Source of the DNA: Piscinibacter defluvii
GTDB taxonomy: Bacteria > Pseudomonadota > Gammaproteobacteria > Burkholderiales > Burkholderiaceae_C
NCBI RefSeq assembly: GCF_004011805.1
Contig: NZ_ML137196.1
Coordinates: forward strand, 369,024 to 433,023
DNA: 64,000 nucleotides
Direction of reading: 5' to 3'
Positions 1,941 through 24,375 of the stretch are shown in pieces. Both the position numbers and the translations under genes were made by a program. The stretch's first letter is position 1, and each line of letters begins with the position of its first letter. The notes under the pieces were generated by a model. The model did not search any database. It had not been told where the DNA came from and worked only from the letters and a program-made list of their open reading frames with translations.

Positions 1941-3638
<1,698 letters not shown>

Positions 3639-3674
3639 CCGCGGCAGCCTACTCCATGCCCGATCCACCCGACA

Positions 3675-5723: not shown

Positions 5724-5744
5724 CCGGCCCCCGGCCGGGGCGAC

Positions 5745-6896: not shown

Positions 6897-7011
6897 GCGG
6901 AGGGGGGCCGATCCACCCCTTCTTTCGGCCCCGGCAGCAAGGACTTGAGCCTTCGAGCCGATGTGGCTTCGCCGCTCGCGCTGAACCCCCGGCGGGGGGG
7001 CGCTCAGAGGC

Positions 7012-7614: not shown

Positions 7615-7657
7615 GCACGCATTCTGCCGCGCGTGCGTTCCCCGCGGCGCGGCCGCC

Positions 7658-9496
7658 TTACGGCTCGATGCCGTCGTAACGCAGCCCGCTCGACCCCTCG
7701 CCGCGGCCGACACGCTTGCGCAGCGCGAGCCACAGCACCGTGCTGCCGCCGATCCAGCGCGTGCATTGGTAGCCGCGCGTGACGAGCGCACCTTCGCGCG
7801 GCACCTCCTCGTCGTGCAGCCGCAGCGGCGCGCCGGCCAGGATCGCGCCACGCGCCGCGTTGAGGCCACCGGTCTGCTGCAGCCGGCCGCGCACCAGGCG
7901 CAGGCTGCCGTCGGGCGCGGCCTGGCGCTGCGGCACCAGCGGGATCCAGTGCGGCGGCACCTCGGTGGCGAGGCGGTAGGACGGCAGCGCAGCGCCGGGC
8001 GAATCGGCCGCGCTCGCGTCGCGGCGCTCGTCGGTGGCGCGCTCGACACGCTGCTCGACGCGCCCCTGCACCACCTTCTCCACCGCCCAGGCCAGGTTGG
8101 CCAGCTCGTCGCGCAGCAGCAGCACCTCGTCGCGCGGGTTGCCGTCCAGGCTGCGCAGCAGGCCGGGCGCCAGGTAGAACAGGTTGGCGCGTGGCGCCGA
8201 GGGCCGGTAGATCGCCGCGCTCATGCTGTCGCGCGCCGGCGGGCGCTGCAGCGTGGCGAGCGCGAACATCGAGAACACGTTGGCCTGGTCGGCCGTGCCC
8301 GGCTCGTGCGGGCGGATCAGGGTCTGCACGCCGAAGGTGTCGGCCACCACCAGCGAGCGGGTCTGCGTCAGCGTGCCGACCGCCAGGTCGACCGGGATCA
8401 CGTACCAGTCGTTGCCGTGGCTGCCGGCGAAGTCGGCCAGCAGCAGCTGCGGCAGGTCGCCCGGGCCGGCGGGCAACAGGCCATGGTCGATGCGCGCGTC
8501 CTCGAACTCCCAGAAGCGCCGCGCCGGCGCGCCGCGAAAGCTCACCGGCGCAGGCATCACGGTGCGGGCCACCTCGCCGGCGGCCTGGTCGAACACCGCG
8601 CCGAGCGGCACGGCGGGGTCGAGGTCGACGCTGTGCCAGTCGAGCCGGCCGCCGTCGTACTCGGCCGCGGTTAGCGTCAGGTCCGCCGCGCCCAGCCCGG
8701 CGCCGGCCGAGAAGGCGTATTCGAGCCGCTCACGCTGCCAGGCGTCGGGCCCGGGCGCGGGCTCGCAGAACAGCGTCTCGTAGGTCGCGAGCCAGGCGTC
8801 GACGGCGGCATTCACCTCGGCGCGGTCGGGCCCCGCGATGGCGGGCTCGGCGGGCAGCGGCAAGCGTGTGCCGTCGGCCGCGCGCCAGGCGGCGGCCAGC
8901 AGGCGGCCGTCGGGCACGCGGCCGGCCATCAGGTCCCAGTAGTCGCGCGATTCGTCGTCGAGCGTGGCGCGTTCGGCGGCGGTCGGTGCCTCCAGCGCAT
9001 GCTGGGCGATGAAACCGGCGCGGTAGCTGCGCGACAGCGGCTGCGCCTCGAGCAGGCGCAGGAAGTGCAGCCCGCTCTCGGCCGCCAGCCGGATCGAGCT
9101 GCCGGCATCGAAGGGGCCGCTCGCGCGCACCGGGCGGCGCTCGACCACCGCCTCGAGCGGCAGCGCGGCCGGGTCGTAGGGCTGCGGGCGGATCGGCTGG
9201 CCGGGCTGCGCAGCGCCGGGCCAGACCCGCGTCAGCGGCGCGCTCAGGCCGCGCCAGCGCGCCTGCACCGGCGAGCCGGCGTCCTCGCCCTCGAACTCGC
9301 CCACCTGCCACTGGCGCGCCAGCAGCCAGAGCGGATCGAACACGCGTGCATGGATGCCCTCGCGCATCGCCGCATCGCGGCAGCGGGGCTCGAGGCGCAC
9401 CCAGCTGGTGATGGACGGTTGCGGTCCGGAGGAGGCGACGACGACCGTGGCCGCGAGGGTGGCGCCGGTGGCAGCCGTGGTGGGACGGGTGACCAT
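7658..9496 (-). CDS. hypothetical protein, 612 aa (gene 5 of giant operon)
   Basis: MVTRPTT... (alternative start MREGIHARVFDPLWLLARQWQVGEFEG at about 9367). Residue composition is protein-like (W, F, Y, D, E) in a 70% GC background. Its ATG lies 3 nt after the stop of the upstream gene. No signal peptide and no recognised domain. Confidence 0.6.
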   Translation of the reverse strand: MVTRPTTAATGATLAATVVVASSGPQPSITSWVRLEPRCRDAAMREGIHARVFDPLWLLARQWQVGEFEGEDAGSPVQARWRGLSAPLTRVWPGAAQPGQPIRPQPYDPAALPLEAVVERRPVRASGPFDAGSSIRLAAESGLHFLRLLEAQPLSRSYRAGFIAQHALEAPTAAERATLDDESRDYWDLMAGRVPDGRLLAAAWRAADGTRLPLPAEPAIAGPDRAEVNAAVDAWLATYETLFCEPAPGPDAWQRERLEYAFSAGAGLGAADLTLTAAEYDGGRLDWHSVDLDPAVPLGAVFDQAAGEVARTVMPAPVSFRGAPARRFWEFEDARIDHGLLPAGPGDLPQLLLADFAGSHGNDWYVIPVDLAVGTLTQTRSLVVADTFGVQTLIRPHEPGTADQANVFSMFALATLQRPPARDSMSAAIYRPSAPRANLFYLAPGLLRSLDGNPRDEVLLLRDELANLAWAVEKVVQGRVEQRVERATDERRDASAADSPGAALPSYRLATEVPPHWIPLVPQRQAAPDGSLRLVRGRLQQTGGLNAARGAILAGAPLRLHDEEVPREGALVTRGYQCTRWIGGSTVLWLALRKRVGRGEGSSGLRYDGIEP

Positions 9497-9498
9497 GG

Positions 9499-12400
9499 TC
9501 AGCGCAAGGTGGCGAGGCCGGGCGACACCGCGTCGCCCTCGGCGTTGACGGCCAGCCCGAGGGCCGGCAGGAAGTGCGCGAGCTCGCCGACCGCGCTGCC
9601 GGCCGCGCCGACCGGGTCGACGAAGGCGCGGTCCAGCGCCTCGGCGTCGACCGCGCGCAGCGCGGCCAGCTCGAGCGTCTCGAGCAGCAGGCGGTGCAGC
9701 GACCAGCCGGTCCAGGGCTGCGCGGCATCGGGCGGCACGGCCAGCAGCACGGTCTGCGGCGCGCAGGCATCGGGCGCGTCGAACTGGAACGCGATGCCGG
9801 TGCTCTCGCGTTCGTTCGGCACCGTCTCGACCCAGTCGTCCAGCCACAGGCCGGCCAGCGGCTGGGTGGCGTCGAGTCCGTCGTCGGCCTGCAGCACCAG
9901 CGAGAGCTTGCCGGCCGGGATGGCCTGTCCGGGCAGCGGCGCCAGGCCGACCCAGCGCTCGCCGGCCACGTGCGGCAGCTGCGCCACCGCCAGGCGCGGC
10001 CGCTCGGCGGCACCGATCGCCTCGGCCGCGTGCAGCAGCGCGCCGGCGCGGCCCACGCCCTCGCGCACGCGCGCCAGGCGCTGCCACCACGGGTGCAGCA
10101 CCAGCGGGTCGCCACCCAGCAGCACCGGCCCGGCGGCAAGCGACGCGTTCAGCTCGGCGCCATTGGCCGGCACGAAGGGCGCGAGGGCCAGGAAGTCGGC
10201 GCCGAACAGCGTCTTCAGCCGGGCCGAGGCAGAGGCCGCCCGCTGGCGCGCGTCGGCGCCGGCCGGGCTGCGCTGCGCGGCCAGCGCCGCCAGCCGCCGC
10301 GCGGCCTCGGCCTGCACCGGGCGCGCCTGCAGCAGCAGCGCGGCACGTTCGGCGGCTGCCTCGGCCAGCGGCGCACCCGGCACGGTGCCGGCCACGCCGT
10401 AGCGCAGCAGCGCGAGCAGCGCCTTGCGCAGGGCCGGGATGGCCGCCGTGTCGGGCGTGGCCAGCAAGGCCTGCAGCGGCGCCAGCGCGGCGCCCAGGCC
10501 GGCCTCGGCGGCCGCGGCGCGTGCCTCCAGGTCCTCGGCCGCGGGCTGGCCGTTCGCGCTGGCCGCCGGCCCGGCCAGGTCCAGCGGGTCGAGCATGCGT
10601 GCGCCGGCCAGGCATTGGCGCGCCCGGGCCGCGACTTCGAGCGCCTCGCGCAGGCTGAACTCGCCCGCCGCCCAGCCGCTGCGCCGGCGCGGGTCCAGGC
10701 GCAGCGGCGCGCCGGCGGGCACCCCGGCCAGCTGGCCGCGCGCGACCTGCAGCGCGAGCGCGTCGAGCTCGGGGGTGGCGGCGCCGGGGCGCGCCGGCGC
10801 CATCCAGACCAGGTCGAGCGGCGCGAGCGCCAGCGCCGACAGCCGGCATTCGAGCCGGCGCAGCACGCGGCCGGCCGCGTCGAGCTGCTCGACGCCGTAG
10901 CGCACCCGGGCCGGCAGCGGCAGCAGCCGTGCGGCCCAGGCGTTCAGGCGCGGCTCGGCGGTGGCCCGCGGCGACGTCGTCGGCCGGGCCCAGCCGGCCG
11001 GCGCCGTCGTGGCGGCCGGGGCGGCCAGCAGCCAGGCCACGCGCTGCGTCAGCCCGGTGCCGCTGCGCGGCGTGCGCGCCACCGTCAGCTCGGGCGGCGG
11101 TGCCTCGCCGTGCGCGATGGCGGCCAGCGTGCTGGCGCTGCGCGCGGTGTTGCCGCGCACCGTCTGGTGCACGGTCTCGGCCAGCACCGCATCGGCCAGC
11201 GCGTCGACCGTGTCGTCGAGCACCCGCAGCGCCGCCGCGCAGACCGCGAACGGCGAGTCCGCCGGCAGCGGACCGCCCGGCGCCAGCGCCTGCTGCCACA
11301 GCTGGTGCAGCCGCAGGCCGTCGACCACGCGGTTCGCGGCCACGCTCTCGGCGCTGGTGCCGGGCGGCGCGTCGGCGCTTTGCAGCGGCGCCAGCGCGCG
11401 GCAGCGCGGCACCTGGGCGTCGAGCCCGCGTTCGTGCAGCTCGCGCTCGAAGCGGTAGCCAAGCAGCGCGCCGAGCGGCTGGCCCTGGCGCACGCCGTCG
11501 AGCAATTGCTCGGCCAGGCGCACGCGCCGCGAGGACAGGTCCACCGCGAAGGCGCCGGCCGCCTGCAGGTTGGCCTTGCCGAGGTGGCCGTTGCGCAGCA
11601 GCGCGGCGGTCTGCGCCTGCTCGAGCGAGGGCGCGTGCAGGAAGCCGGGGTCGTCGCGCAGCGGGTAGACCGGGCCGGTCTCGCCGGGCGGCGTGGGCAG
11701 CGGCGCGATGGCCGGCGCGGCGCGCAGGTTCAGCACCCAGCCGTAGCCGCCGCAGCGCAGCCCGGTGGCGCGCGTGCCGCGCAGCGCCGCGAGGCGGCGC
11801 GTGGCCAGCGAGGTGATCCAGGCGTCGAGCCGGTGCGCGGCGCAGTCCAGCGTGCCGGCCAGCAGGCGCTGCAGCGCGGGGGTGGGCAGGCCGGCCAGGT
11901 GGGCGAAGGCCTCGCGCAGGTCGCGCAGCGGCGCGGCCTCGGGGGCCTCGAGCCCGGCCGGCGTGGCAAGGAAGGCGCCGAGCGGCTGCCCGCCGCTGGC
12001 CTCGGCACTTGCGGCGAGCTGCTCGCGCCAGGTGGTGCTGCGCGTGGCGGCGTTGAAGTTCATCAGCTCGACATCGCGCCAGGGCCCTGGCGGCACCGCC
12101 TGGCCCCGCGCGGCCAGGCGCAGCGCGGCGGCCAGCGTCTCGAGCTGCAGCGCGTGGCGCAGCAGCGCCTGCAGCAGTGAACGCGCATCGGTCGGCGCAC
12201 CCGGCGCCGCGGGCGGCGGCTGCAGCGGCGGCGCGGCCAGCAGGGCCTGGATGAACGCGGCCTCGTCGTCGCGCACCAGCGGCACGCCGAGTGCCTCGCT
12301 GCCGGGCGCGAAGGCCGATTCGGCCAGGCGCGGTCGCCCGGTCAGGCCGAGCTGGCGCCACACCGCGTAGGCCAGCGTGTCGCGGGCAGCCGCCCAGCCG

Positions 12401-13920
12401 CTGGCCGCGGGGTCGACCCCGAGGAAGCTGCGCAGGTGCTGCAGGTAGCGCGGGCCGAGCAGCTGGCGCAGCCGGTAGCCGGCCGCGACCGCATCGCTTT
12501 GCAGCGCGGCGGCGAGCTCGGCGTCGGCCGTGCCGCCGTTCGGGCGTCCCAGGCGCGGCACGCTGTCGATGCGTGGCCGCCAGAGCCGGTCGCGCAGCGT
12601 GACGAGCAGGTCGCGCAGGCGCTGCTCGCGCGCCGCGTCGGGGTCGCCGGCACGCGGCGCCAGGTCCGCCAGCAGCGTGACCGGCAGCAGGCCGTAGGGC
12701 TGGCGCCCGACGCGCAGCGCCGGCAGCGGGCCGAACGGGCGCAGGAAGTCGAGCGCATGGCCGCGCACCCAGTCGAGCGCGGCCGGCGTGAGCCCGGTGC
12801 CGACGAAGCCGATCAGGTTGGCGAGGTGGTAGCCCCAGGTGGCCGGCCAGAGCGCCGCGGCCATCTGGCGCGCGTCGAGCTGCTCGCGCGCGGCCGCGCC
12901 CTCGAGCCGGCCGAGCGCGGCCAGCGCCGGCGCGTCGGACAGGCCGAGCGAGCGCGCCAGGCGCTCGGCCTGCGTGTGCGGCGCGAGCGTGGCGAGCGCG
13001 TCGCGCCACAGCGTGTCGAAGCTGCGCCGGTGGCCGGGGTCGCCGCTGTCGTGGCCGGAGGGCTCGTCCTCGGTGTTGTTGGTCGGCGTCGCGCTGGCCA
13101 GGAAGGCCAGGCCGTCGGTGTGCCGGTGCGCCTCCAGCAGCCCGGCCAGGCCGGCCGAGGCGTCGGCGGCCGCGCCCACGCCGAACACCAGCAGCACGTC
13201 GACGCCGGTCACGCCGACCGGCAGCAGCAGGCGCAGCGCCATGCCCTCGCGCTCGGCGGTCTCGAAATCGACCATCCAGCGCATGCCGGCGTCGATGGCG
13301 AGCTGGTCCTCGCGCGTCGGCGGGCTGCTGCCGGTCACCGCCGGCCCGAGCGCCGGGGCGCGCTTGATCGGCCGCCCCTGCGCCTGCGCGACGACCTGCC
13401 CCCCGGCACGGGCCACGGCGAACCAGCGCTCGGGCATCAGCCGCGCCACCGGCGTGATGCTCCAGCCCGAGGCGCCCGCCGCCGGCCGCGGCGTGACGGC
13501 CGGGAAGCGCGGCGTGCCGGGCTTCGCCGGGTCCGGCCCGGGCGCGTTGGTCGGCGTCAGCACCTGCGCGATCCAGGCCGCGCGGGCCGCGTCGAAGCGG
13601 TCGGCCAGCTGCTGCCAGGCGGCGCGGCGCTTGTCCTCGCTGGTGCCGGCCAGCCAGGTCTGGGTCCAGAAGTGCTTGCCCCATTCGATCTCGGCGGCGG
13701 TCAGCGCACGTTCGTGCGCGTCGACATGGAGCTGGTCCGGGAACACACGCACGCGCAGCTCGCTGCGGCCGTCCGGCTGCGCGAAGAAACGCGTCTCCAG
13801 CCGCACCGGCAGCAGCGCGAGCGGCAGGTCGCCGGGTGCGAGCGGCGCGGCCAGCTCGGCCGGCACGGGCTGCGGCGAGAAGGCCAGCAGCTGGATCATC
13901 GAGGGCAGTACCGTCGGCAT
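9499..13920 (-). CDS. hypothetical protein, 1473 aa, Ala/Leu-rich and probably largely alpha-helical (gene 4 of giant operon)
   Basis: [18 protein letters not shown]...[10 protein letters not shown]... is continuous, non-low-complexity and spans 4.4 kb. The start lies 13 nt after the stop of gene 3. No recognised domain. Confidence 0.65.
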
Positions 13921-13933
13921 GGTGGGGGCGCGG

Positions 13934-16891
13934 TCAGGCGGGCAAGAGCTCGCTGGCGTGGATCAGCACGCGCACCGGCAGCTGCAGCAGCGCACGTGCG
14001 GCCTGCCCGGCATGCACGGCCCAGGGCGTGGCGGCGGGGCGCGGCGAACCATCGGGGTTCAGGTCGAGGCGCAGGTGGCTGCCGGCGCCCGTGGCCGGCG
14101 GCGCGTCGACGCCGAAGCGCGGCTCGGTGGGCTGCTGCTGCAGCACGAAGTACCAGCCGGGGTGGCCGATCGCCTCCGCGACCGGGATGTCGAAGCCGAA
14201 GAACGCGATGTCGGGCTCGAGCGCGCCGCGGAACAGCGGCAGGCGTTCCTCGCCCGCCCCCTCGGGCGGCCGGCGCTGCGCGCCCTGCGCGACGCCGCGC
14301 ACCGCGTACACCGCCGTGCCCGGGTAGCGCCGCAACAGCACGCTGCGCAGCAGCAGCACCAGCGGTGGCGGCATCGGCGCGCCGGTCACCTCGCGCGGGG
14401 CCTGCTCGCCGAGCCGCGCCGTGCCCCAGCCCGCCAGCGGCACGATGTCGCCCGGCACCGTGGCACGTGCGCTGCGCCAGAAGCGCTCGAAATACGTGCC
14501 CGTCTCGTGCGCGAGCGGGAAGTCGCGCCAGACCAGCTCGCGGGTCATCTCGACGTTCAGGCCGAGCATGAAGGCCTCGATGAAGCGCCGGTTCGGCTCG
14601 AGCAGCGCCACCGTGTCGGCCGGCACCTGCTGCAGCCCGGGCAGCAGCCAGTCCTGCGACAGCCGCGCCAGCGCCTCGGAGGCCGGCAGCGTGTAGCGCG
14701 GGATCAGGCCCAGCGCGCCACCGGGCAGCGTGGCGGCCGCGGGGGACGGCGCCGGTTCCGCACGCTGCACCGCGGCGCGCCAGCGCTGCGCCAGCATCGG
14801 CGCCGGGTCGAGCTGCGCCTGCACGCTGGGCCGCTGCGCCACCAGCAGCGGTTCGAGGGCCAGCAGGGTCAGCACCGGCGTCGGCGCCGGCGCCGGGTTG
14901 ACCAGCGCAAGGTGGCGCCGGGCCGCGGCGCGGAAGCGGGCCGCGTCGGCGCTGTCCACCGGCACCGGCGGCGGCGCCGGCGGCTCCACCGGCGGCGGCG
15001 GGTCCGGATCGGGGTCGATCGGCGGCGGGCCCTCGCCCGGCGGGAAGATCGGGATCAGCCGCGCCGGCGCCGGCGCGCCGCGCGTGACCACCGTGGCCGG
15101 CGTCGCGACCAGCAGCGCCGGTGGCTCGGGCGCGACCACGAAGCCCGGGCGCCGCGGCGCGCCGGCCACCGCGGCGTCGGTCATGCCGGCGTACAGCAGC
15201 GACGGGTTGGGCGCCGGCGCGCGGCGGCTGACGTCGTCGACCGTGACGCAGCCGCGGGCCTCGGGCACCGGGCGAAAGATCACCGACGCGGTGAAGAACA
15301 CCTGGAACAGCCGCCCGGTGGCGACCACCGGGGGCGCGGCCACGTCGAGCTTGCGCGCCACCCGCGCGGAGCGCCGCGCCAGCGCGCCGCGCGGCCGCGT
15401 CAGGCGGCGCAGCGGCGCGGACAGCGTCGCGTCCGACGCGTTGGTGCGCGCGATCAGCGCGCGCATCGACGCGGTGGCGCCCGGCGCCGGGTCCTGCGGA
15501 TCGGGCAGGCGCAGCTGCGCGCGCGCCGGCGCGGCCAGGCGCCACAGCATGTCGTCCTGCCCCGCGGCGCCTTGCGTGAACGGGCGCACGTGGCGCTGCA
15601 GCAGCCGCGTGCCCACCGCGCCGGCCAGCTGCAGCTGGCGCAGCCGCTGGTTGACCGCCGCCATCTCGCCGGCCTGCGCCCAGGCCTGCGCGACCAGCTC
15701 GTCCTGCTGCGCCTGCACGACGCGCGTGCCGAGCCCGGCGGCGACGCGTTCGCGCGGGTCGAGGTTGATCTCGTCGAGCCAGGTCGGCGGCAGCGTGCTG
15801 CCCACCTGCCGGCGTCCGGCCAGCCAGCGGCCGTAGACCGGCGGGCCGACCAGCGGGTCGTCGTCGTCGGCACCGAGGCTGGTGTTGAGCAGCGCCTGCA
15901 GCGCGGCCTGCCAGCCCGGGCCGGCCGCGTCGGCCAGCGCCATGCGCGCCATGCCCACCGGCTGCAGCGCGCCCTCGAGTGCGATCAGGCCGTCGCGGCC
16001 CGGCGTGGCGGCATAGGCGAAGCCGGGCCGGCCGATGTCCAGCGGGCGGCGCCCGACCAACTCGGACAGGTCGCGCGGCACCAGCCGGTCGACGATGGTC
16101 TCGAAGTCCTCGCGCGCACCGGTGCGGAACTGCCAGTGGTGGTAGACCGGCAGCGCGATGCGCGACGGGTCTTCCGCGTTCGGCCAGGCCGGCGCCAGCG
16201 TGGCGCTGGCCGGCGGCGGGAGGTTCAGCCCGGCGCGCCGGCCGACCTCGAAGGTGGGCACCACGCAGGCCAGGTACTCGGTGTGCGCCTCGAGCCGGCG
16301 CGGGCTGAGCAGCCGCGCCACCGACAGCTCCGGGCGCGTGGCCACCAGCTGCTCGAGCGCCGTGGGGCTGGGCGGCGCATCGCCGGTCCAGCTCAGCTGG
16401 GCATGCGCCCAGGCCCAGGATTGCGCCAGGTCCGGCAGCTCCTCGGCCACGCGCGCCGGCGCGCCGATCTCCAGCACCGGCAGCGGCTCGCTGCCGGCCG
16501 GGCGCAGGCGCACGCCGTCCTGCACGCGCACCACCACCAGCGCGATCCACGGCCGCAGCCGGCCCTGCGCATCGGCCGCGGCGGGCGTGAAAAGCCACGG
16601 CAGGTCCGGGTTGTCGAACTCGATGGCCGCCAGGTCGAGCGCCTCGAAGTCGGTGCTGCCGTCCGGCGGCTCGGTGCGCAGCACCTGGCGTGGATCGATG
16701 CCGATCACGTCGGCCGGGCCGCGCACGCGCACGTCCACGCCCGGGTCGGTGGCGGCGCTGCCGGTGACGGCCAGGCTGACCTTCAGGTTCACCGAGGCCG
16801 GCAGGCCCGGCGCGCCGGTGTCGGGCTGCGCCAGCCGCGCGGCGAAGCCCTGGCGCAGCCAGGGGAAGAAGAGCAGGCGCGCGGTGGCCAT
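13934..16891 (-). CDS. hypothetical protein, about 985 aa, with a central Pro-rich linker (gene 3 of giant operon)
   Basis: [20 protein letters not shown]... The Pro-rich tract [29 protein letters not shown] (about 14951..15058) separates two halves. The start was chosen at the first ATG downstream of the palindromic element. The in-frame upstream extension to 17083 runs into that element. Confidence 0.6.
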
Positions 16892-17162
16892 CTCAGAAGC
16901 TGTGGGAGAACCCAACGCACCCGCGCCGGGGTGGCCAAGGGCCTTGGGCGAGGCGCGGCGCGCCGCCCAGACTGGCCGTCTGGGCCAGCGGCGCAACGCG
17001 GCCCAAGGCCCTTGGGTACCCCGGCCCGAAGGGTGAGCCCCGGGAAAGGGCCCACTGCGCGATGCAAATGCTCGACGTGCCACCCGGCACGTCTGTGCTT
17101 TGCGCCTCCATTGGGCCCTTTCCCGGGGCCCACGCGGGTGTGTTGGGTTCTCTCACAGCTTC
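16892..17162. repeat. 271-bp nested inverted-repeat (palindromic) intergenic element inside the giant operon
   Basis: Outer 31-bp inverted repeat agaagctgtgggagaacccaacgcacccgcg / cgcgggtgtgttgggttctctcacagcttct with 29/31 matches. Inner inverted repeats: ccggggtggccaagggccttggg / cccaaggcccttgggtaccccgg, a gcccagac-tggcc-gtctgggc hairpin, and a perfect 17-bp inverted repeat ccccgggaaagggccca / tgggccctttcccgggg around a gtgcc-accc-ggcac hairpin. Confidence 0.6.
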
Positions 17163-20100
17163 TCAGTTCGCCTCGAGGAAGGCCGGCATGGCGACCGGTG
17201 CGAGCGTCACACGCGGCGCCGGCGGCGCGTCGGCCAGCAGCGGCTCGGCGCGCCGCAGCGTGCTGCGCGCGGCGGCACCCTGGCGCGCGTGCAGCTCGGC
17301 CTGCGCGCCGGCCAGGGCGTAGCGGGGCAGCGTCCGCACGCGCTGCGGCGACTCGGGCGCGAGCGAGCGGTCGATCACCTTGGTCTCGTACTCGAGCGCG
17401 TACTCGGCCGCCTGGTCGAGCCGGAAGGCCGGCGTGCCGAGGCCGAGCTGCACGCCCGCCTCCATCGGCACGAAGGACGGGCTGGCCAGCATCTGCGCAT
17501 CGCTCAGCTCGAAGAACTGGGCCGGGGCGAAGTCCTCGTGCAGCCGCGTCAGCGTCTGCGGCGGCTCGGCCCGGCCGTCCACGCTCACCGCGCCGATGGC
17601 GAGCGTGCGCGCACCGAGCACCGGCGCACCGCCGAAGCGCCGCACCGGCTGCGGCGTGGCCAGCGGCACCACGCCCTGGCGCACCACCAGGCTGGCCAGC
17701 GGATGCACCAGCACCGGCGCGCCCGCGCTCGTGGTACCGCCGGGCTCGCGCAGCACGACGATGCGCGACTGCCCGGGCGCCAGCTCGCCATGCCAGTTGC
17801 GCGCGTCCGTCAGCGCGGCCACGAGCTGCGCCAGCAGGTCCACCGCCGGCGGCGCGGGCGGCCGGGCGCCGGAGATCAGCGTCGCGTCGACGCGGATCGA
17901 GACGTCCCACCACAGGATCTCGAACGTCGCCTTGGCCCGCAGCGCGAGCGGCCGCGGGCCCTCCAGCGCACCCTCGACCTTCACCTTGAACAGGTTGCGC
18001 GTGCCCTTGCGGATCTGCATGCTGGCCAGGAACTCGGCCAGGAAGTGGAACGGGTTCAGCGTGATCAGCACGTCGAAGCCGACGTCGCCGGTGACGTTGA
18101 AGCTCATCGGCCCCTCGGCATACAGGTGCGCCGCGGCGCCGAACTGCACGGTGTTGGAGGTGAGCGCGAAGTAGGCCTCGCAGGAGAGGCGCGGGTTGCT
18201 GCCGGTGGTGAGGTTCAGCGCCAGGCGCTCGAGCTTCGGGAAGCCGGCCGGCGGCGCAAACGCATGGTGCAGCCCGCCCACCGCGAGCGCGAAGCTGCGC
18301 GGCGAGCGCCAGCGCATGCGCAGCGCCATCGCGCCGGTCAGCACGAACTTGTCGAGCAGCTTCGAGTCGACCAGCACCGCGTCGACCGCGGCCGTGCCCT
18401 GGTCGAGGTCGAACACGCCGAGCGCGTCCATGCGCAGCACCAGCAGCGGGCTCTGCTCGCGCGGCAGCAGCGCGCTGATGCGGCCCAGCACGAACAGCCG
18501 GTCGCGCACGCCCCACTCGACCAGCACCGCCAGGTCCATGGTCACGATGACCGGCACGCCCCAGGTGATGCGCAGCATCGGCCCGAGCACGTAGCTGCCG
18601 CGCTGCGCCGGGAACACGCGCTCCAGCCCGGCCAGGATGGCTGCCGCATTGGCCACCGGGTCCTTTGGGAACAGGATCAGGTCGAGCGTGCGCTGGCGCA
18701 GGCCCTCGCGCAGCGCGTCCTCGCTGACGGTGCGGTGGATCGCCAGCAGCCCGCCGATGCCGGCCAGCTCGAAGCCCATCGGCAGGCGGATCGGGCGGAA
18801 GCCCTCGGCGGTGATCAGCAGCACCATCGAGTAGCCGCGCGCGCCGTCGGGCAGGCGCGTGGAGATCAGCCCGACCGCCTTGACCGACACCAGCTGCGAG
18901 ATCTCCAGCTCGAGCATGCCGGCGTACTGCCCCTTGACCGGGTCGTGGAACACGAAGCCGCCGCCCTTGACGCTCTTGGCGTCGACGACGAGTCCGATCG
19001 CGCGCGGCGCGAGGAAGCCGAGGTCGAGGTTCACCAGGCCGAGGTTGGCCTTGGCCATGTCCTGCGGGTGCGTGACGGTGGCGCGCAGGCCGATGTGGTC
19101 CACGCGCGCCAGCACCGGCCCGATGCGGCCGGACAGCGACAGCCCGAGCGAGAGGTCCAGGTGCGGCGCGGGGTCGAGCCCGCCGTCCACGCCGAGCAGC
19201 AGCTCGTCGAGCCGCACCGGCCCGAGGCTGCGGCCCACCGCGATGCGCCGGTGCAGGCCCTTGGCGGCCGGCTCGCCGCCGGGCAGCAGCGGCAGCGGCT
19301 GGTCGGGCACCGGCTGCGGCGGCTTGGGCGGCGGCGCGGGCACCTTCTGGCTCTCGAAGTCCTTCAGCCCGCCGGTCAGCTGCCAGCCCTGGCCGCTGGC
19401 ATAGCGCGTGCCGATGTCGAACTTGACGGTGGTCTTGCGGTCCGGCAGCAGCGAGCCGATGAAGCCGTCGATGGTGCTGGCGTCGAAGCTCAGCACGCAG
19501 CCGAGCAGCGCCAGGTCCAGGCTCGGCCCGCCCTCGTCGACCGCGGCCTTCAGCGCGACGCTGCGCACGCCGAAGCTGAGCATCCTGGTGTCCGGGAAGC
19601 GGAACAGCAGCGCACGGTCGGGCGTCTCGGTCGAGCGCAGGGTGAGCGCGATGCGCTGCCCGGCCGGCGCCGCCGCGCTGATGTCGTTCGCGCTGAACCA
19701 CAGCGGCAGCCCGGCGGCCTGCAGTTCGAAGCGCAGGCGCAGCCGCTTCGACAGCGCGACCTCGAGGTCCTCCTCGCCGCTCAGGCCCACGAACAGGCCG
19801 GGGCCGCCATGCGCCTCGGGGATCAGCGCAAGCGTGGTGGCGAGCGAGGCGTCGAGCGTGCTGGTCGGGTCGTCGTCCTTGTCGCGGGCATGCCAGCGCA
19901 CCGTCAGCATGCGGCTGGACAGCAGGTCGGCGGTGGACTCCGGCGTGGGGATGGCCTGCAGTGGCGGCACGGTGTCCCAGCCGTACAGCATGTCCAGCGC
20001 GTCCTGCTTCGCCCAGTCCTGGAACAGGCCCTTCTTCGCGATGCGCATCACCGCCAGCACGATGGCGGCCAGGCGCAATGTCGGGTTGGACAGCGCCTGC

Positions 20101-20612
20101 GCGTCGCCCTCGCTCGCGAGCCGTTCGAACGGCCCGCTGCCGGCGAACAGGAACTTCAGCAGCCCGACCACCGCGGACAGCGCCCGGTCCAGCGTGGTGT
20201 AGCCCTCGCCGAGCGGCGACGCGGTCTCGGCCATCCAGCCGACGAACTGCATCACGAACCAGAGCTTGGGGCGGTGCCGGTAGACGTAGTCGGTGGCGAG
20301 CAGGTCGATGGCCAGCACCTGCACCTCGTCGGCCACGTCGACCAGCAGCTCGTCGAGCTTCTTGCGCCGCTCGGTCAGGGCCTGCAGCAGCGCGAGCAGG
20401 TCGATGTCCTCGCCGCCGACGTAGCGGTCCAGCGCCGTGTCGCCGCCCGACGGTGCCGGCGCGGCACCGAGCGGGCCGAGCGCGATGCCCAGCGTGCGCG
20501 CCAGCGCCTCGCGCTGCGCCGCATCGCCCAGCGTCGCCTCGACGTAGCGCAGGAAGGCGATCAGCTCGCCGACCAGTCCGCGCAGCAGGGAGCCGTCGTG
20601 GTCGTCGGTCAT
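17163..20612 (-). CDS. hypothetical protein, 1149 aa, with an internal Pro-rich linker (gene 2 of giant operon)
   Basis: MTDDHDGSLLRGLVGELIAFLRYVE... has diverse composition. The Pro-rich tract QKVPAPPPKPPQPVPDQPLPLLPGG lies at about 19261..19362. The ATG lies 4 nt after the stop of gene 1. Confidence 0.65.
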   Translation of the reverse strand: MTDDHDGSLLRGLVGELIAFLRYVEATLGDAAQREALARTLGIALGPLGAAPAPSGGDTALDRYVGGEDIDLLALLQALTERRKKLDELLVDVADEVQVLAIDLLATDYVYRHRPKLWFVMQFVGWMAETASPLGEGYTTLDRALSAVVGLLKFLFAGSGPFERLASEGDAQALSNPTLRLAAIVLAVMRIAKKGLFQDWAKQDALDMLYGWDTVPPLQAIPTPESTADLLSSRMLTVRWHARDKDDDPTSTLDASLATTLALIPEAHGGPGLFVGLSGEEDLEVALSKRLRLRFELQAAGLPLWFSANDISAAAPAGQRIALTLRSTETPDRALLFRFPDTRMLSFGVRSVALKAAVDEGGPSLDLALLGCVLSFDASTIDGFIGSLLPDRKTTVKFDIGTRYASGQGWQLTGGLKDFESQKVPAPPPKPPQPVPDQPLPLLPGGEPAAKGLHRRIAVGRSLGPVRLDELLLGVDGGLDPAPHLDLSLGLSLSGRIGPVLARVDHIGLRATVTHPQDMAKANLGLVNLDLGFLAPRAIGLVVDAKSVKGGGFVFHDPVKGQYAGMLELEISQLVSVKAVGLISTRLPDGARGYSMVLLITAEGFRPIRLPMGFELAGIGGLLAIHRTVSEDALREGLRQRTLDLILFPKDPVANAAAILAGLERVFPAQRGSYVLGPMLRITWGVPVIVTMDLAVLVEWGVRDRLFVLGRISALLPREQSPLLVLRMDALGVFDLDQGTAAVDAVLVDSKLLDKFVLTGAMALRMRWRSPRSFALAVGGLHHAFAPPAGFPKLERLALNLTTGSNPRLSCEAYFALTSNTVQFGAAAHLYAEGPMSFNVTGDVGFDVLITLNPFHFLAEFLASMQIRKGTRNLFKVKVEGALEGPRPLALRAKATFEILWWDVSIRVDATLISGARPPAPPAVDLLAQLVAALTDARNWHGELAPGQSRIVVLREPGGTTSAGAPVLVHPLASLVVRQGVVPLATPQPVRRFGGAPVLGARTLAIGAVSVDGRAEPPQTLTRLHEDFAPAQFFELSDAQMLASPSFVPMEAGVQLGLGTPAFRLDQAAEYALEYETKVIDRSLAPESPQRVRTLPRYALAGAQAELHARQGAAARSTLRRAEPLLADAPPAPRVTLAPVAMPAFLEAN

Positions 20613-20616
20613 CGCG

Positions 20617-23600
20617 TCAGCTTCCGAGCGCCCGCAGCCTGTCGACCAGCGATTCGCCGAGCGGGGCCTTGAGCGGCTCGTCCTCGGGCCGCACCGCGCC
20701 GGCCGGCGGCGTCAGCTCGGCGCGCTGCTCCATCGCCACCTCGGGCGTCAGCAGGTGCGGCTGCTCGGCGCCGTCCAGCGGATCGGGCAAGGGGCAGATC
20801 ACCTGGTGCACGGCCTCGAGCACGTCGCGCCGCGCGCTGCCGCTGCCCTCGGTGCGGCGAGCGAACAGCACGCGGCCGAGGTTGCTGCGGAACAGGATGA
20901 AGCGCGAGTGGCTCAGCCGGTCGAGCTGGCGCACGTGGCGCGCGGCCACCTGCGCATAGGCGTCGCGCGCGCGGTCGCCGCCTTCCTCGAGCTGCGCGCG
21001 GCTCGGCGCGCCGCCGGCGATCGGCGCCGGCCGCGCCATCGCCGGGCGCGTCGTCGTTCCGGCATCCGGCCGCAGGTCGAACACCGGACGCAGGGTCCAC
21101 GAGAAGTCGGGCCGGCGCTCGCTGCGCACCGTGGTGCCGGCCGGCCAGCCCTGTGTGGGCAGGAAGGCCGGCCGCTGCGGGATGCGCTTGCGCAGCACGA
21201 TCGGCACGTCGCGCTCGCTGCGCCCGGGCGGGAAGGCGAACGCGCCATCGGCGCCGTCGAGCCAGCCGAGCCGGTCGCCGCCGATGTCGCGGCGCACCAG
21301 GTCCTGCGCGAACGAGAGGCTGTGGTCGATCAGCGTGATGTACGAGGGCATCACGTTCTTCAGGCCGCTCGAGGTGAACTGCAGCAGCCGCGCCGGCTGC
21401 GCCTCGCCGCGCCGCCAGTAGCTCATCTGCGTGGCGCTGCTGTAGTGCACGTCGCCCGACAGCAGCACCACGCGGCGGTGCGGCGCGAGCCGCGCCGTCA
21501 GCGCCTCGAAGGTGGCGGGGTCGAGCGCCCAGCTCTCGATCGCGTCCGGGTTCAGCCCCGGCATGCCCTCGCCGCCGCGGCCGGCGCCGATCTGGCCCGG
21601 CGTGGAGAGATCGAACGCGCGGTACGCGCCCGGCGCCACCACCTCGTCGAACACCGAGGGCGCCAGCACCTGCAGCGGCGCCACCACCAGCAGCACCTCG
21701 CGCCCGGCCGGCAGCGGCGCGGCGGGCACCTGGTCGTCGATCATCGTGGCGGCCACGTTGCCCGGCGGGCCGAAACGCGACGCGAAGCTGCGCCGCGTGC
21801 GGTTGTCGAGCACGGCGACCTGGAAGCTCGAGCCGTCGACCGTGTAGTGCCACTTCATCGGTGCGTTCACCGGTGCGTGGCGGCCGTGCGGGCGCGCCGG
21901 GTCCACCGGCTGCGGCAGCAGGTCGAGCCCGAACAGCCGGTCGAGCTCGCGCGTGGCGGCGGGCAGCGGCCACTCGGCGGCAGCGGCGCCGAACAGCCGC
22001 ACCACCTGGTTGAGCACCAGCCGGCCCGGCGCGCCGGCCTCGTAGCGCAGCAGATCGTTGCCCCAGTCCTGGAACACCGCATAGGCGGCCAGCGCATTGC
22101 GCACCACCTGGCGGCCGAGCGGCTGCGTGCGCACCGCGTCGGCGGCCAGCACGCGGCGGCACCACTCGGGGTTGAGGTTCCAGTCGTCGGTGACGTCGTG
22201 GTCGTCGAACACCATGTAGGTGGGCACGTTGGCCAGCGCGCGGCGCACCTTGGGCTGGCCGGCCGCAAAGCGGCGCAGCCGCGCCAGGTCGACATGCACG
22301 CCGCGCCACACCGGCCAGACATGCTCGCGCGCGAATTCCTCCACGCAGCGCGCCAGCGCGGTCTGGCCCAGGTTGACGTAGCCGTCGTCCGCGAAGGTCT
22401 TGCGCTGGGCGGGTGTCGGGTCGTCGGTCCAGCCGGTGACCAGGCACTCCAGCAGCGCGCCCTCCAGCGCCGCGTCGGCCACGTCGGGCGGCGCGGACAC
22501 GGCCACGCCGCCGAGCGTGGGCACCTCGGGTGCGAGCCAGGGCCGGGCCTCGGCCACCTGCAGCGCCTCGCGCAGGAAGGCGGCCCACTGCGCGGCGGGC
22601 ACCAGCGTCTTCAGGTGCTCGCACCAGCGATCTTCCTGCTGGTCGTCGTAGCGCTGCCGGCGCCGGCGCAGCTCGGCCAGGATGGCCGTGGGTCCGGCCA
22701 GCAGCACGCGCTGCGGCGGCTGCGCTTGCGGGTCGATCACGCAGTCGACGTCCGCCACGCGCGCGATGCCGAAGCGCTTGACCAGCGCGCGCATCACGCG
22801 CGCCTGCAGCTGGCGCATGAAGGTCTGCACCACCGCGGCATGCTTGCGCGCCAGCTCCTCCATCGCGCGGCCGGTGTCGGGGTCGAGCTCGGCACGCTGC
22901 TCGGCGCCCAGCAGCGCCAGGCTGTCGGGGTCGCCGATCAGCGCCAGGAAGCCGGCATGGCCTCGGGGCGGATTCGACCGCGCGAGGCGCTGCAGCATGA
23001 AGTGCGCGAAGCAGTCGGCCAGGCGCCGCTTGTTGCGCGGGCCGACGACGCCGGTCTTCTCGTCCGGGCGCGGGCGGATCGCGTTCCAGTCGGACCAGCG
23101 CGCGTTGCCGAAGTAGTCGACCGAGGCATCGTCCAGCCGGCTGCGCGCGTACATCGGCGCCGCGTCGATGTTGTCCTTGCCGGGCGAGCGCGCCACCGCG
23201 TCGAGCGGGATCTCCTTCAGCGCCTCCCAGCACCAGTCGGCATCCACGGTGAGGTACATCGCCGCGAACTCGCCGAACGAGAGCAGGTGGCTGCTGCCAT
23301 CGCTCGAGGTGAAGCGCGCATCGGCCCGCGTCAGCTCGAGCCGCCCGCCGGGCGGGAAGGCATCGAGCGTGGCCGGGTAGCGCTGCGATGCCAGGTCGAG
23401 CTTCGCGTCCTTCAGCACCGGCACTCGGCCGACCAGCAGCGATTCGGGGAAGGTCGCGAAGGTCTTGAGCCGCGTGCCGGCGGCCCGCAGCGTCTCGACC
23501 TTGGGCGCCGCGGGCGACTCGCTGTCCGACAGCAGGCGGTGCGCCAGGCGGTTCAGCAGCATCAGGTGGGGCGCGGAGACGTCGTCGGCGTAGATCTGGT

Positions 23601-24255
23601 CGCCGCCCAGGTAGAGCTGGTGCGGGCGCTTCAGCGCCGCCGGGCCGAGCGGATCGCCCTCCTGGCGCGACTGCCCGGCAAACGCCTGCTCGACCAGCGT
23701 GTCGATCCACGGCATCGCGTCGTAGTGGTCGTTGGCAACGCGCCGGCACGAGCCGTACAGCACGTTCAGGTCGGTCAGCAGCGCGGGCGGCAGCGCGAAG
23801 CTGGGCAGGAATCCGGCGGTGTAGCCGAGCGGCGCCTCGCTGACCCAGGCGCTCGGCGGCAGCCCGGCGGCGCTGAAGCGGCCGAGCAGGCCTTCGCTGG
23901 CGAGGCTGCGCTTGCCCGTGCCGTCGGCCGGCTGGAAGGCCAGGTCGTAGGCGTAGTTGACCCCCGGCTGCAGCGCCACCGCTGGGGCCGGCCGGCGCAC
24001 GACGACCAGCGCCACGTGCAGCCGCTCGCCGATGCGCAGCGTGGCCGTGGCCGGCGACACGGAGATCGCCTTGACCGTGGTGCCCGACTTGCGCAGCCCT
24101 TCCCAGACCGACAGCGTGACCGTGGCACTGCGGCTCAGCGCCACCCACACCGCCACCGCACGCGGCTCCACACGCCGCAGGATCGGGCCGGCCAGCACGA
24201 ACGGCAGTTCCACGCGCGGGGTCTCCTCGGGCCGGTGCCACGGCGCCCATCGCAC
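20617..24255 (-). CDS. PhoD-like metallophosphatase-family protein, greatly expanded (1212 aa) (gene 1 of giant operon)
   Basis: Ordered PhoD-like motifs are present: YGSCRR (about residue 168), LGGDQIYADD (about 218; nt about 23590-23605), MVFDDHDVTDDWN (nt about 22170-22206) and LLSGDVHYS (nt about 21440-21466). An N-terminal region is reminiscent of the PhoD N-terminal beta-sandwich. The motifs are spread over about 700 residues, against about 300 in a canonical PhoD. Confidence 0.65.
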   Translation of the reverse strand: MRWAPWHRPEETPRVELPFVLAGPILRRVEPRAVAVWVALSRSATVTLSVWEGLRKSGTTVKAISVSPATATLRIGERLHVALVVVRRPAPAVALQPGVNYAYDLAFQPADGTGKRSLASEGLLGRFSAAGLPPSAWVSEAPLGYTAGFLPSFALPPALLTDLNVLYGSCRRVANDHYDAMPWIDTLVEQAFAGQSRQEGDPLGPAALKRPHQLYLGGDQIYADDVSAPHLMLLNRLAHRLLSDSESPAAPKVETLRAAGTRLKTFATFPESLLVGRVPVLKDAKLDLASQRYPATLDAFPPGGRLELTRADARFTSSDGSSHLLSFGEFAAMYLTVDADWCWEALKEIPLDAVARSPGKDNIDAAPMYARSRLDDASVDYFGNARWSDWNAIRPRPDEKTGVVGPRNKRRLADCFAHFMLQRLARSNPPRGHAGFLALIGDPDSLALLGAEQRAELDPDTGRAMEELARKHAAVVQTFMRQLQARVMRALVKRFGIARVADVDCVIDPQAQPPQRVLLAGPTAILAELRRRRQRYDDQQEDRWCEHLKTLVPAAQWAAFLREALQVAEARPWLAPEVPTLGGVAVSAPPDVADAALEGALLECLVTGWTDDPTPAQRKTFADDGYVNLGQTALARCVEEFAREHVWPVWRGVHVDLARLRRFAAGQPKVRRALANVPTYMVFDDHDVTDDWNLNPEWCRRVLAADAVRTQPLGRQVVRNALAAYAVFQDWGNDLLRYEAGAPGRLVLNQVVRLFGAAAAEWPLPAATRELDRLFGLDLLPQPVDPARPHGRHAPVNAPMKWHYTVDGSSFQVAVLDNRTRRSFASRFGPPGNVAATMIDDQVPAAPLPAGREVLLVVAPLQVLAPSVFDEVVAPGAYRAFDLSTPGQIGAGRGGEGMPGLNPDAIESWALDPATFEALTARLAPHRRVVLLSGDVHYSSATQMSYWRRGEAQPARLLQFTSSGLKNVMPSYITLIDHSLSFAQDLVRRDIGGDRLGWLDGADGAFAFPPGRSERDVPIVLRKRIPQRPAFLPTQGWPAGTTVRSERRPDFSWTLRPVFDLRPDAGTTTRPAMARPAPIAGGAPSRAQLEEGGDRARDAYAQVAARHVRQLDRLSHSRFILFRSNLGRVLFARRTEGSGSARRDVLEAVHQVICPLPDPLDGAEQPHLLTPEVAMEQRAELTPPAGAVRPEDEPLKAPLGESLVDRLRALGS

Positions 24256-24375
24256 GCGGCACCGGCACCGTAGTCCCTTGGCCGCACGCGCGTATCCCTA
24301 GTTCGGCAGGTGTCGGAGCGGCCCCGGCAGGCGCGCCGATCTAGCATGCGGCGGCACACAACCCCGGGAGCCCCC

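What the first reader, a model, noticed from the sequence alone, without database searches (positions are those of the whole stretch)
7658..24255. 16.6-kb operon of five giant ORFs with no recognisable system-level homology
Five consecutive minus-strand ORFs encode proteins of 1212, 1149, about 985, 1473 and 612 aa. The junctions are 4 nt, 271 nt, 13 nt and 3 nt. In the last, the stop of gene 4 and the start of gene 5 overlap in a TGAccATG arrangement. A lipoprotein gene lies 44 bp downstream. These frames have ordinary protein composition, with plenty of W, F, Y, D, E, K and N despite about 70% GC. Every overlapping alternative frame is Arg/Ala/Gly/Pro junk. None of the five starts with a signal peptide. 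I recognise no secretion-system, phage-tail, Rhs/Tc-toxin, NRPS/PKS or known defence-system signatures. The only assignable domain is an expanded PhoD-like phosphatase in gene 1. Genes 2 and 3 each contain a central Pro-rich hinge. Gene 4 is Ala/Leu-rich with repeated helical segments. This co-transcribed, domain-poor set of very large proteins is the strongest candidate in the window for an undescribed multi-component system. Its function is open: envelope or effector machinery, or a nucleic-acid or phospholipid-targeting complex.
Basis: partly seen in the sequence, partly recalled or inferred. Interest (0 to 1): 0.85.

Follow-up and report, generated by a model that had tools for sequence, protein, structure and literature searches.

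The report
Unknown giant-protein cassette carrying swappable enzyme
The five huge genes are real. Four match nothing characterised (one carries only a domain of unknown function), yet they stay together in the same order in hundreds of bacterial and some archaeal genomes, always behind an exchangeable cell-envelope-type enzyme, so this looks like an undescribed multi-protein system.

Summary
Observation confirmed. The window comes from Piscinibacter defluvii. Five co-oriented minus-strand genes (1212, 1149, 985, 1473 and 612 aa) are supported by codon-position GC and match NCBI's gene boundaries.

The 271-nt g2/g3 gap is a MITE-like insertion. A sister strain has TGAGATG at that junction.

The block g2-g3-g4-g5 is colinear in 62 of 62 informative loci. 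These span Proteobacteria, Acidobacteriota, Verrucomicrobia, Chloroflexi, Gemmatimonadota, Actinomycetota and Firmicutes. The same block sits on haloarchaeal plasmids. Flanking genes are never shared between distant loci.

The first gene is variable: PhoD-like (31 of 47 loci), PLD (8, often with a TM segment), Amidase_2, trypsin-like, or unknown.

The N-terminal ~450 residues of g2 co-vary with that enzyme. Its DUF6603 part tracks g3. The swap unit is therefore enzyme plus adaptor.

Orthologues of g3, g4 and g5 carry FG-GAP, lamin-tail and haloarchaeal surface domains.

Best reading: a new, horizontally mobile complex that carries an effector directed at cell envelopes. Whether it acts outside or inside the producer is unresolved.

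The parts
20617..24255 (-). g1, the position-1 enzyme. A PhoD-like metallophosphoesterase of 1212 aa with an N-terminal DUF7800-like beta-sandwich and a ~300-aa insertion relative to orthologues.
   Evidence: PF09423 scores 27.7 bits against a cut-off of 27. DUF7800 is sub-threshold. Across 18 orthologues the invariant motifs are S169-C170-R171, G218-D219-Q220-x-Y222-x-D224, D684-D685-H686 and G934-D935-x-H937. This position is variable across loci.
19263..20612 (-). g2 N-terminal part (about residues 1-450). Helical, ends in a Pro-rich linker, and is specific to the enzyme class. Inferred adaptor, chaperone or inhibitor.
   Evidence: At g3 identity 47-60%, this part is 46% identical between loci of the same enzyme class and 21% between different classes. 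The C-terminal part is 60% and 56% respectively. Sliding-window identity places the breakpoint at residues ~440-480.
17163..19262 (-). g2 C-terminal part. The DUF6603 domain (residues 460-1039, about 17496-19235) plus a ~110-aa tail. Inferred to dock onto the core.
   Evidence: PF20248 E=7.8e-121. Its divergence tracks g3. No PDB relative by profile search.
16886..17172 (.). MITE-like insertion that creates the 271-nt g2/g3 gap. It is not part of the system.
   Evidence: 40-nt terminal inverted repeats at 88% complementarity plus two internal hairpins. The motif occurs twice in the window against 0 expected. The empty site TGAGATG is seen in L001. No Rfam family matches.
13934..16891 (-). g3, a core protein of 985 aa. 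Layout: beta-rich N-domain (1-310), long helices (320-520), disordered Pro-rich hinge (520-735), alpha/beta C-domain (737-985).
9499..13920 (-). g4, a core protein of 1473 aa. Ala/Leu-rich. Orthologues carry lineage-specific insertions.
   Evidence: No family hit in 23 orthologues. No PDB hit by profile. At least 1483 homologous clusters, all named 'hypothetical'. FG-GAP_3 insert in Neobacillus. halo_surf_dom insert in Salinigranum.
7658..9496 (-). g5, a core protein of 612 aa.

Best explanation
g1-g5 is one copy of a widespread, horizontally mobile five-gene module that has not been described.

Proposed components:
- g3, g4, g5 and the DUF6603 half of g2 form a constant multi-subunit core.
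- The first gene encodes an exchangeable hydrolase. Here it is a PhoD-like phosphodiesterase. Elsewhere it is a membrane-associated phospholipase D, a peptidoglycan amidase, a trypsin-like protease, or a protein of unknown type.
- The N-terminal third of g2 is the cognate, class-specific partner of that hydrolase. It could be an adaptor, a chaperone or an inhibitor, and it plugs the enzyme into the core.

Proposed action: the assembled particle brings the hydrolase to a cell envelope. The most likely target is another cell, reached after non-classical release. This is analogous in logic, not in ancestry, to Tc toxin complexes and to T6SS adaptor-effector modules. Lineage-specific adhesion-type inserts in g3, g4 and g5 would serve as binding modules.

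Shown: the genes are real; synteny is invariant across phyla and domains of life; flanks are unrelated; enzyme swaps are repeated; the recombination breakpoint lies inside g2; there is no detectable homology to known machines.

Inferred: physical complex formation; the adaptor role of the g2 N-terminus; an envelope substrate; an extracellular site of action.
For: Genes and synteny:
- The five genes are real.
- 566 species-level genomes encode a g3 relative.
- g2 lies directly upstream of g3 in 62 of 62 loci, and g4 plus g5 downstream in 62 of 62. Median junctions are -4 to 16 nt, which suggests translational coupling and fixed stoichiometry.
- The same colinear five genes sit on a Salinigranum (archaeal) plasmid.
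- g2, g3 and g5 co-occur in the same 13 of 72,556 plasmid records.
- Flanking genes are not shared between distant loci. In the five loci with Pfam-annotated gene calls, four have housekeeping flanks and one (L088) has mobile-element genes.

Enzyme position:
- Among 47 loci it is PhoD-like in 31, PLD in 8, and otherwise Amidase_2, trypsin-like, DUF2515 or unknown.
- The classes are interspersed on the g3 tree.

Swap unit:
- It comprises the enzyme gene plus the 5' third of g2.
- Extra tandem enzyme-DUF6603 modules occur in L023 and L004.

Envelope-type chemistry:
- The nearest solved relatives of the PLD class are true phospholipases D.
- 6 of 9 PLD proteins have TM-like segments.
- Amidase_2 occurs at position 1.
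- In Streptomyces a PhoD-like position-1 protein is fused to PG_binding_1.

Adhesion-type inserts:
- FG-GAP in Neobacillus g4 and Streptomyces g3.
- Lamin-tail domains in haloarchaeal g5.
- A BGTF surface domain in haloarchaeal g4.
Against: - None of the proteins has a signal peptide or Tat motif in Gram-negatives, Gram-positives or archaea.
- No lysis cassette, secretion gene or immunity-like small gene is conserved next to the module.
- No physical interaction has been demonstrated.
- The PhoD assignment is marginal, and its profile finds no solved structure.
- The g5 model is poor, and g1, g2 and g4 were not modelled, so a known fold could still be hidden there.
- The adhesion-type inserts occur only in some lineages.
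- The window copy has a MITE-like element between g2 and g3 that might be polar.
Confidence: 0.5

Rival explanations
1. An intracellular anti-phage, abortive-infection or programmed-lysis system. The g2-g5 core senses infection or stress in the cytoplasm and unleashes the bound hydrolase on the producer's own membrane or wall.
For: - No export signals in any lineage, including archaea.
- Patchy, HGT-like distribution and a self-contained cassette.
- A swappable effector at a fixed position is typical of defence systems.
- Endolysin-like Amidase_2 and membrane-active PLD with a TM segment could kill from within.
- One locus sits beside integrase-arm and HTH genes.
Against: - No PADLOC hit.
- No NTPase, nuclease, helicase, methylase or nucleic-acid-binding signature.
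- Of the five loci with Pfam-annotated gene calls, four have housekeeping flanks and none lies in a defence island.
- FG-GAP, lamin-tail, BGTF-surface and PG-binding inserts are typical of extracellular proteins.
- No relative was found in 2.9 million viral contigs. This fits a non-phage origin but says nothing on defence.
Confidence: 0.25
2. A non-antagonistic scaffold for turnover or scavenging of phosphodiester-linked envelope or environmental polymers. It would be a phosphorus-acquisition or wall-remodelling complex, cellulosome-like in logic.
For: - 39 of 47 position-1 enzymes are phosphodiesterases, either PhoD-like or PLD.
- From my own knowledge, Bacillus subtilis PhoD is a phosphate-starvation phosphodiesterase that degrades wall teichoic acid.
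- The hosts are mostly soil organisms with large genomes.
- Flanks are housekeeping genes in four of the five loci with Pfam-annotated gene calls.
Against: - Alternative enzymes include amidase and protease.
- Repeated swapping of enzyme plus adaptor, and tandem extra modules, are hallmarks of conflict systems.
- The module is present in only about 0.3% of species genomes, with a phylogeny incongruent with taxonomy.
- No export signals.
- No Pho-box-like motif was seen by eye upstream of g1.
Confidence: 0.1
3. A very divergent member of an already known machine: a Tc/ABC toxin, Rhs, an eCIS or phage-tail-like particle, T6SS or T7SS.
For: - One related locus (L088) has a 204-aa SpvB-domain ORF (E=6e-37) just upstream of the enzyme gene.
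- An RHS gene lies divergently next to the Streptomyces longwoodensis cassette.
- FG-GAP repeats also occur in TcB (my own knowledge).
Against: - The SpvB ORF is unique to 1 of 90 loci.
- No TcA, TcB, TcC, RHS, sheath, tube, baseplate, VgrG or PAAR family was found in any of the five proteins or in 23 g4 orthologues.
- No PDB profile hit.
- BFVD returns nothing.
Confidence: 0.05
4. The long ORFs are chance open frames in 75% GC DNA, not genes.
For: Every frame in this region has long ORFs.
Against: - The codon-position GC pattern is specific to these frames.
- Orthologues at 30-70% identity occur across phyla, including low-GC Neobacillus.
- There are thousands of homologous clusters.
Confidence: 0

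Closest known systems
Tc (ABC) insecticidal toxin complexes (TcA/TcB/TcC)
   Same: - An operon of a few very large proteins without signal peptides.
- An exchangeable enzymatic payload.
- Receptor-binding-type inserts and FG-GAP repeats in some members.
- Assembly in the cytoplasm and action outside is the inferred parallel.
   Different: - No sequence or fold similarity was detected.
- The payload here is a separate, fully folded enzyme of 0.8-1.5 kaa with its own adaptor, not a C-terminal hypervariable region inside an RHS cocoon.
- This module also occurs in archaea.
Polymorphic toxin systems and T6SS adaptor-effector modules (Zhang et al. 2012, PMC3482391)
   Same: - A constant delivery part plus a recombining toxin-proximal part.
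- The effector repertoire overlaps (PLD lipases, amidases, proteases).
- Tandem spare modules occur.
   Different: - No cognate immunity gene.
- No T6SS, T5SS or T7SS trafficking domains.
- The swap unit is a whole gene plus the 5' third of the next gene.
- The core proteins are unrelated to any listed trafficking system (one search found no matching description in that survey).
Bacillus subtilis PhoD / PF09423 phosphodiesterases
   Same: g1 has the GSC, GDQxYxD, DDH and GDxH metal-site-type motifs and an N-terminal beta-sandwich.
   Different: - Only 29 residues align to the Pfam model, at threshold.
- The profile finds no solved structure.
- No Tat signal.
- About twice the usual length.
- Embedded in a five-gene module.
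Defence systems with swappable effectors (CBASS, Lamassu, Avs and similar)
   Same: A fixed sensor or scaffold with interchangeable phospholipase, protease or hydrolase effectors, and a patchy HGT distribution.
   Different: - No PADLOC model matches.
- No cyclase, SMC, STAND or other NTPase.
- No defence-island context in any inspected locus.

Membership tests
Tc/ABC toxin complex | TcA (VRP1, neuraminidase-like, TcdA_TcdB_pore), TcB (SpvB, FG-GAP, mid domains) and TcC (RHS cocoon plus hypervariable region) families | tested here: not met
   No such Pfam or NCBIfam hit in g1-g5. A SpvB fragment occurs in only 1 of 90 related loci.
Phage-tail-like particles / eCIS / T6SS | Sheath, tube, baseplate (gp25, gp27, gp6-like), spike and ATPase genes | tested here: not met
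   PHROGs and Pfam returned none. BFVD Foldseek on g3 gave no hit with E<=0.001. No g3 relative in IMG/VR.
Known anti-phage defence systems (PADLOC-DB v2) | A match of any component to a PADLOC model | tested here: not met
   0 hits for all five proteins at E<=0.1. The database dates from 2023, so later systems are not covered.
PhoD-like phosphatase (PF09423), for g1 | Score above the Pfam gathering threshold, and conserved metal-binding motifs | tested here: inconclusive
   27.7 bits against a cut-off of 27, over 29 residues. Motifs are invariant in 18 orthologues. The profile finds no PDB PhoD.
DUF6603 (PF20248), for g2 | A full-length match to the Pfam model | tested here: met
   E=7.8e-121, model positions 2-501 of 502, residues 460-1039.
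Polymorphic toxin system (sensu Zhang et al. 2012) | A variable toxin module recombining onto a constant part | tested here: met
   Enzyme classes are interspersed on the core tree. The breakpoint lies inside g2.
Polymorphic toxin system (sensu Zhang et al. 2012) | An adjacent cognate immunity gene and a recognised trafficking domain | tested here: not met
   No conserved small ORF lies next to the enzyme, and junctions are too tight to hold one. No trafficking domain was found.
Operon (single transcript) | Co-transcription of g1-g5 | not testable with these tools
   Tight junctions conserved across phyla and no internal promoter or terminator signal above chance are consistent with it. RNA-seq is needed.

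The most novel reading that the evidence does not exclude
g2-g5 build a new class of protein nanomachine, shared by Bacteria and Archaea. It loads a folded hydrolase through a dedicated adaptor domain and delivers it to the envelope of other cells. This would be a toxin-delivery principle unrelated to Tc toxins, contractile injection systems or the numbered secretion systems.
Probability: 0.3. Interest if true: 0.92.

Novelty: categorically new. Interest (0 to 1): 0.82.

Why it matters
The g3 family has about 6,500 clusters at 50% identity. The g4 and g5 families have well over a thousand clusters each at 90% identity. None of the three has a Pfam or NCBIfam model, a solved relative or a literature mention. 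Yet they are locked in one invariant gene order from Burkholderiales to Bacillales to haloarchaea.

The modular enzyme-plus-adaptor swap gives an immediate experimental handle: which enzyme is present, which target it hits, and which side of the membrane it works on.

If the module is a delivery machine, it adds a new mechanism of microbial antagonism that crosses the bacterial-archaeal divide, and a possible programmable protein carrier. If it is a defence or lysis system, it adds a sensor architecture with no NTPase.

Either way, four large protein families would gain a function.

Tried and rejected
Searches that returned nothing useful:
- NCBIfam, PADLOC and PHROGs on all five proteins: no hits.
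- PDB sequence or profile searches: g1 single and g1 profile, no hits at the thresholds used; profiles of g2, g3, g4 and g5, only non-significant hits with E>=0.015.
- Profile-profile comparison of g3, g4 and g5 with each other: unrelated.
- Foldseek against viral structures: nothing.
- The afdb50 library was unavailable.
- Pfam on 23 g4 orthologues: nothing.
- IMG/VR scan: no g3 relative.
- Literature searches for DUF6603, PF20248, DUF7800 and several keyword sets: no description.
- Rfam on the region: none.
- Promoter and terminator scan: nothing above chance.

Leads that were followed and dropped:
- Conserved flanking genes, such as an immunity gene, a lysis cassette or a secretion system. 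Only short-chain dehydrogenases recur, by chance, along with synteny among close relatives.
- The SpvB lead. It is a single locus and probably a remnant.
- A shared N-terminal domain across enzyme classes. No BLAST similarity was found.

Limits: the two AlphaFold jobs went to g3 and g5, so g1, g2 and g4 remain unmodelled.
Full report
**1. Observation**

The window is Piscinibacter defluvii (Burkholderiales). g3 is 100% identical over its full length to an NCBI protein of that species, and g2, g4 and g5 are exact matches.

GC is 72-80%, so long ORFs exist in every frame. A codon-position GC plot resolves this. From 7650 to 24300 one phase has 0.93-0.99 GC, and the next phase up has 0.45-0.64. 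That is the order expected for minus-strand genes, and it changes phase exactly at the proposed gene borders.

The five genes are:
- g1 20617-24255
- g2 17163-20612
- g3 13934-16891
- g4 9499-13920
- g5 7658-9496

The spacers are 4, 271, 13 and 2 nt. The last is TGAccATG, with no overlap.

The upstream gene is divergent and encodes a GH3 beta-glucosidase (24310-26853). Downstream lie a small lipoprotein gene (7012-7614, LAGC lipobox) and a GGDEF gene.

None of the five proteins has a signal peptide, a TM helix or a Walker A motif.

**2. The 271-nt gap is secondary**

In Piscinibacter sp. MQ-18, where the cassette proteins are 87-96% identical, the g2 stop and the g3 start read TGAGATG. The window has a 287-nt element at that point. 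It carries 40-nt terminal inverted repeats and two internal hairpins, and it is flanked by a TGAG duplication. This looks like a MITE. It matches no Rfam family. Ancestrally, all four junctions were tight.

**3. No assignment to anything known**

- Pfam gives a threshold-level PhoD hit over 29 residues plus a sub-threshold DUF7800 hit in g1, and a full-length DUF6603 match in g2. It gives nothing for g3, g4 or g5.
- NCBIfam, PADLOC and PHROGs give nothing for any protein.
- HMM profiles built from orthologues of g1 to g5 find no solved structure.
- Foldseek against predicted viral structures finds nothing.
- The g5 model is poor (pLDDT 56) and gives only FN3-like matches.
- g3, g4 and g5 are not related to each other.
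- 'DUF6603', 'PF20248' and 'DUF7800' occur in none of about 8 million full texts.

**4. Conservation**

A g3 profile finds relatives in 566 species-representative genomes. It also finds 6471 clusters at 50% identity in 1.84 billion proteins. g4 and g5 have at least 1483 and at least 1655 clusters at 90% identity. All are 'hypothetical' and none has a Pfam domain.

I fetched 80 loci with 10-kb flanks. In these, g2 lies directly upstream of g3 in 62 of 62 informative cases. g4 and g5 lie downstream in 62 of 62. All are on one strand, with median junctions of -4 to 16 nt.

The hosts span Beta-, Gamma-, Alpha- and Deltaproteobacteria, Acidobacteriota, Verrucomicrobia, Chloroflexi, Gemmatimonadota, Actinomycetota and Firmicutes (Neobacillus, Heliomicrobium).

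In the plasmid collection, g2, g3 and g5 hit the same 13 records. These include four haloarchaeal megaplasmids. The Salinigranum marinum plasmid has all five genes in order.

The window's neighbours are not conserved with the cassette. I inspected five related loci with Pfam-annotated gene calls. Four have flanks of unrelated housekeeping genes. The fifth, L088, lies beside integrase-arm and HTH genes. The low-GC Neobacillus locus also has metabolic flanks.

No relative exists in IMG/VR.

**5. The first position is a swappable enzyme**

Among 47 loci with a full g2 and enough upstream DNA, the gene abutting g2 falls into these classes:
- PhoD-like: 31 loci
- PLD-like: 8 loci
- an unknown ~1000-aa family: 2 loci
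- a unique protein: 6 loci (Amidase_2; trypsin-like with an endosialidase-type barrel; DUF2515; three unknowns)

The classes share no BLAST similarity. They are interspersed on a g3 tree that is itself incongruent with taxonomy. This implies repeated swaps and horizontal transfer.

The PhoD class keeps the motifs SCR, GDQxYxD, DDH and GDxH invariant. That argues for an active metallophosphoesterase.

The PLD class is nearest to genuine phospholipases D, namely plant PLD alpha 1 and human PLD2. Six of its nine members have strongly hydrophobic segments between the N-terminal domain and the catalytic domain.

In Streptomyces longwoodensis, the position-1 protein is PhoD-like at its N-terminus and carries a peptidoglycan-binding domain.

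**6. The swap unit includes the 5' third of g2**

At matched core divergence (g3 identity 47-60%), the results are as follows:

| Part of g2 | Same enzyme class (n=23) | Different class (n=173) |
|---|---|---|
| N-terminal ~470 residues | 46% identical | 21% identical |
| DUF6603 part | 60% identical | 56% identical |

Sliding windows show identity jumping from 10-30% to 55-88% at residues ~440-480. That is the start of DUF6603, and in the window protein it is the Pro-rich linker.

Two loci carry extra tandem modules: g2'-PLD-g2-g3-g4-g5 in L023, and PLD-g2'-?-g2 in L004.

The simplest reading is that the g2 N-domain is the cognate partner of the enzyme. It could be an adaptor, a chaperone or an inhibitor. 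DUF6603 would then anchor the pair to g3-g5. This is inference from co-variation. Binding has not been shown.

**7. Where does it act?**

For an extracellular or surface role:
- g4 has an FG-GAP insert in Neobacillus.
- g3 has an FG-GAP insert in Streptomyces.
- g4 has a haloarchaeal surface (BGTF) domain in Salinigranum.
- Haloarchaeal g5 proteins end in lamin-tail domains.
- The enzymes are of envelope type (PLD, amidase, PG-binding).

Against it:
- No export signal was found in any lineage examined.
- No conserved lysis, secretion or immunity gene accompanies the module.

My preferred model is a particle that is assembled in the cytoplasm, released non-classically, and carries its enzyme to another cell's envelope. 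I give it confidence 0.5. The intracellular defence or programmed-lysis alternative gets 0.25. A scavenging scaffold gets 0.1.

**8. Comparison with known systems**

In logic the module resembles Tc toxins and polymorphic-toxin or T6SS adaptor-effector systems. All have a constant carrier, a recombining payload and spare modules.

It fails their membership tests. It has no Tc, RHS, tail or T6SS families, no immunity gene and no trafficking domain. It also fails PADLOC.

One SpvB fragment in a single related locus and one neighbouring RHS gene are noted, but they are not general.

I therefore rate the system categorically new. There are caveats. g1, g2 and g4 were not modelled, the AFDB library was unavailable, and PADLOC dates from 2023.

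**9. Verdict**

Interest 0.82.

Noticed in passing
window 16886-17172: A MITE-like 287-nt element with 40-nt terminal inverted repeats and two internal 25-28-nt hairpins. It is inserted exactly between the g2 stop and the g3 start, with a TGAG duplication. It is absent at this site in Piscinibacter sp. MQ-18 and from the other 90 fetched loci. It may be polar on g3-g5.
   Followed up: partly
window 9421-9496: The annotated g5 ATG is probably about 25 codons too far upstream. Homologues align only from residue ~26 and their consensus starts MPSITSW. Several in-frame GTG codons lie just before PSITSW.
   Followed up: partly
window 32834-32905 (-), with 33276-33351 and 33484-33559: ARAGORN calls an odd tRNA with a two-base 'anticodon' (Rfam tRNA score 42.7 bits). 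It sits next to normal tRNA-Arg(CCG) and tRNA-Asp(GTC) genes.
   Followed up: no
window ~38000-48000: GC falls to 0.64-0.67, against 0.70-0.80 elsewhere. The segment ends at tRNA-Phe (47753-47828). It may be an integrated island.
   Followed up: no
window 7012-7614 (-), 5745-7247 (-), 24310-26853 (+): The neighbours are a 200-aa lipoprotein (LAGC lipobox, no Pfam hit), a GGDEF diguanylate cyclase, and a GH3 beta-glucosidase with a PA14 insert. The first two have no homologue in any of the 80 related loci. The GH3 gene recurs only in the sister strain, Piscinibacter sp. MQ-18 (L001, 94% identity).
   Followed up: yes
L088 3399-4013: A 204-aa ORF with a strong SpvB (TcB N-terminal) domain (E=6e-37) overlaps the start of the PhoD-like gene. 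The locus lies next to integrase-arm and HTH genes. The ORF is unique among 90 loci.
   Followed up: partly
L023 504-9938 and L004 1-9964: Tandem extra modules: g2'-PLD-g2-g3-g4-g5 in L023, and PLD-g2'(partial)-?-g2 in L004. These suggest spare enzyme/DUF6603 cassettes.
   Followed up: partly
L045, L053, L060, L061, L063 and L023 position-1 genes: PLD-class enzymes carry one to three strongly hydrophobic TM-like segments (Kyte-Doolittle 19-residue score 2.1-3.1) at residues ~250-350. PhoD-class enzymes carry none.
   Followed up: partly
L086 (Salinigranum marinum plasmid) 4835-24471; also L084: An archaeal version of the whole cassette. g4 is enlarged to 2322 aa with a BGTF surface domain, and g5 to 904 aa with two lamin-tail domains. 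The Halobellus copy (L084) looks partly fragmented.
   Followed up: partly
L085 (Streptomyces sp. NBC_01724 plasmid) 1-5695: Next to the cassette, but on the other strand, lie a PLD-like gene, a DUF2235 gene (Tle1-type lipase family) and an Ig-like-domain gene. They may be further payloads.
   Followed up: no
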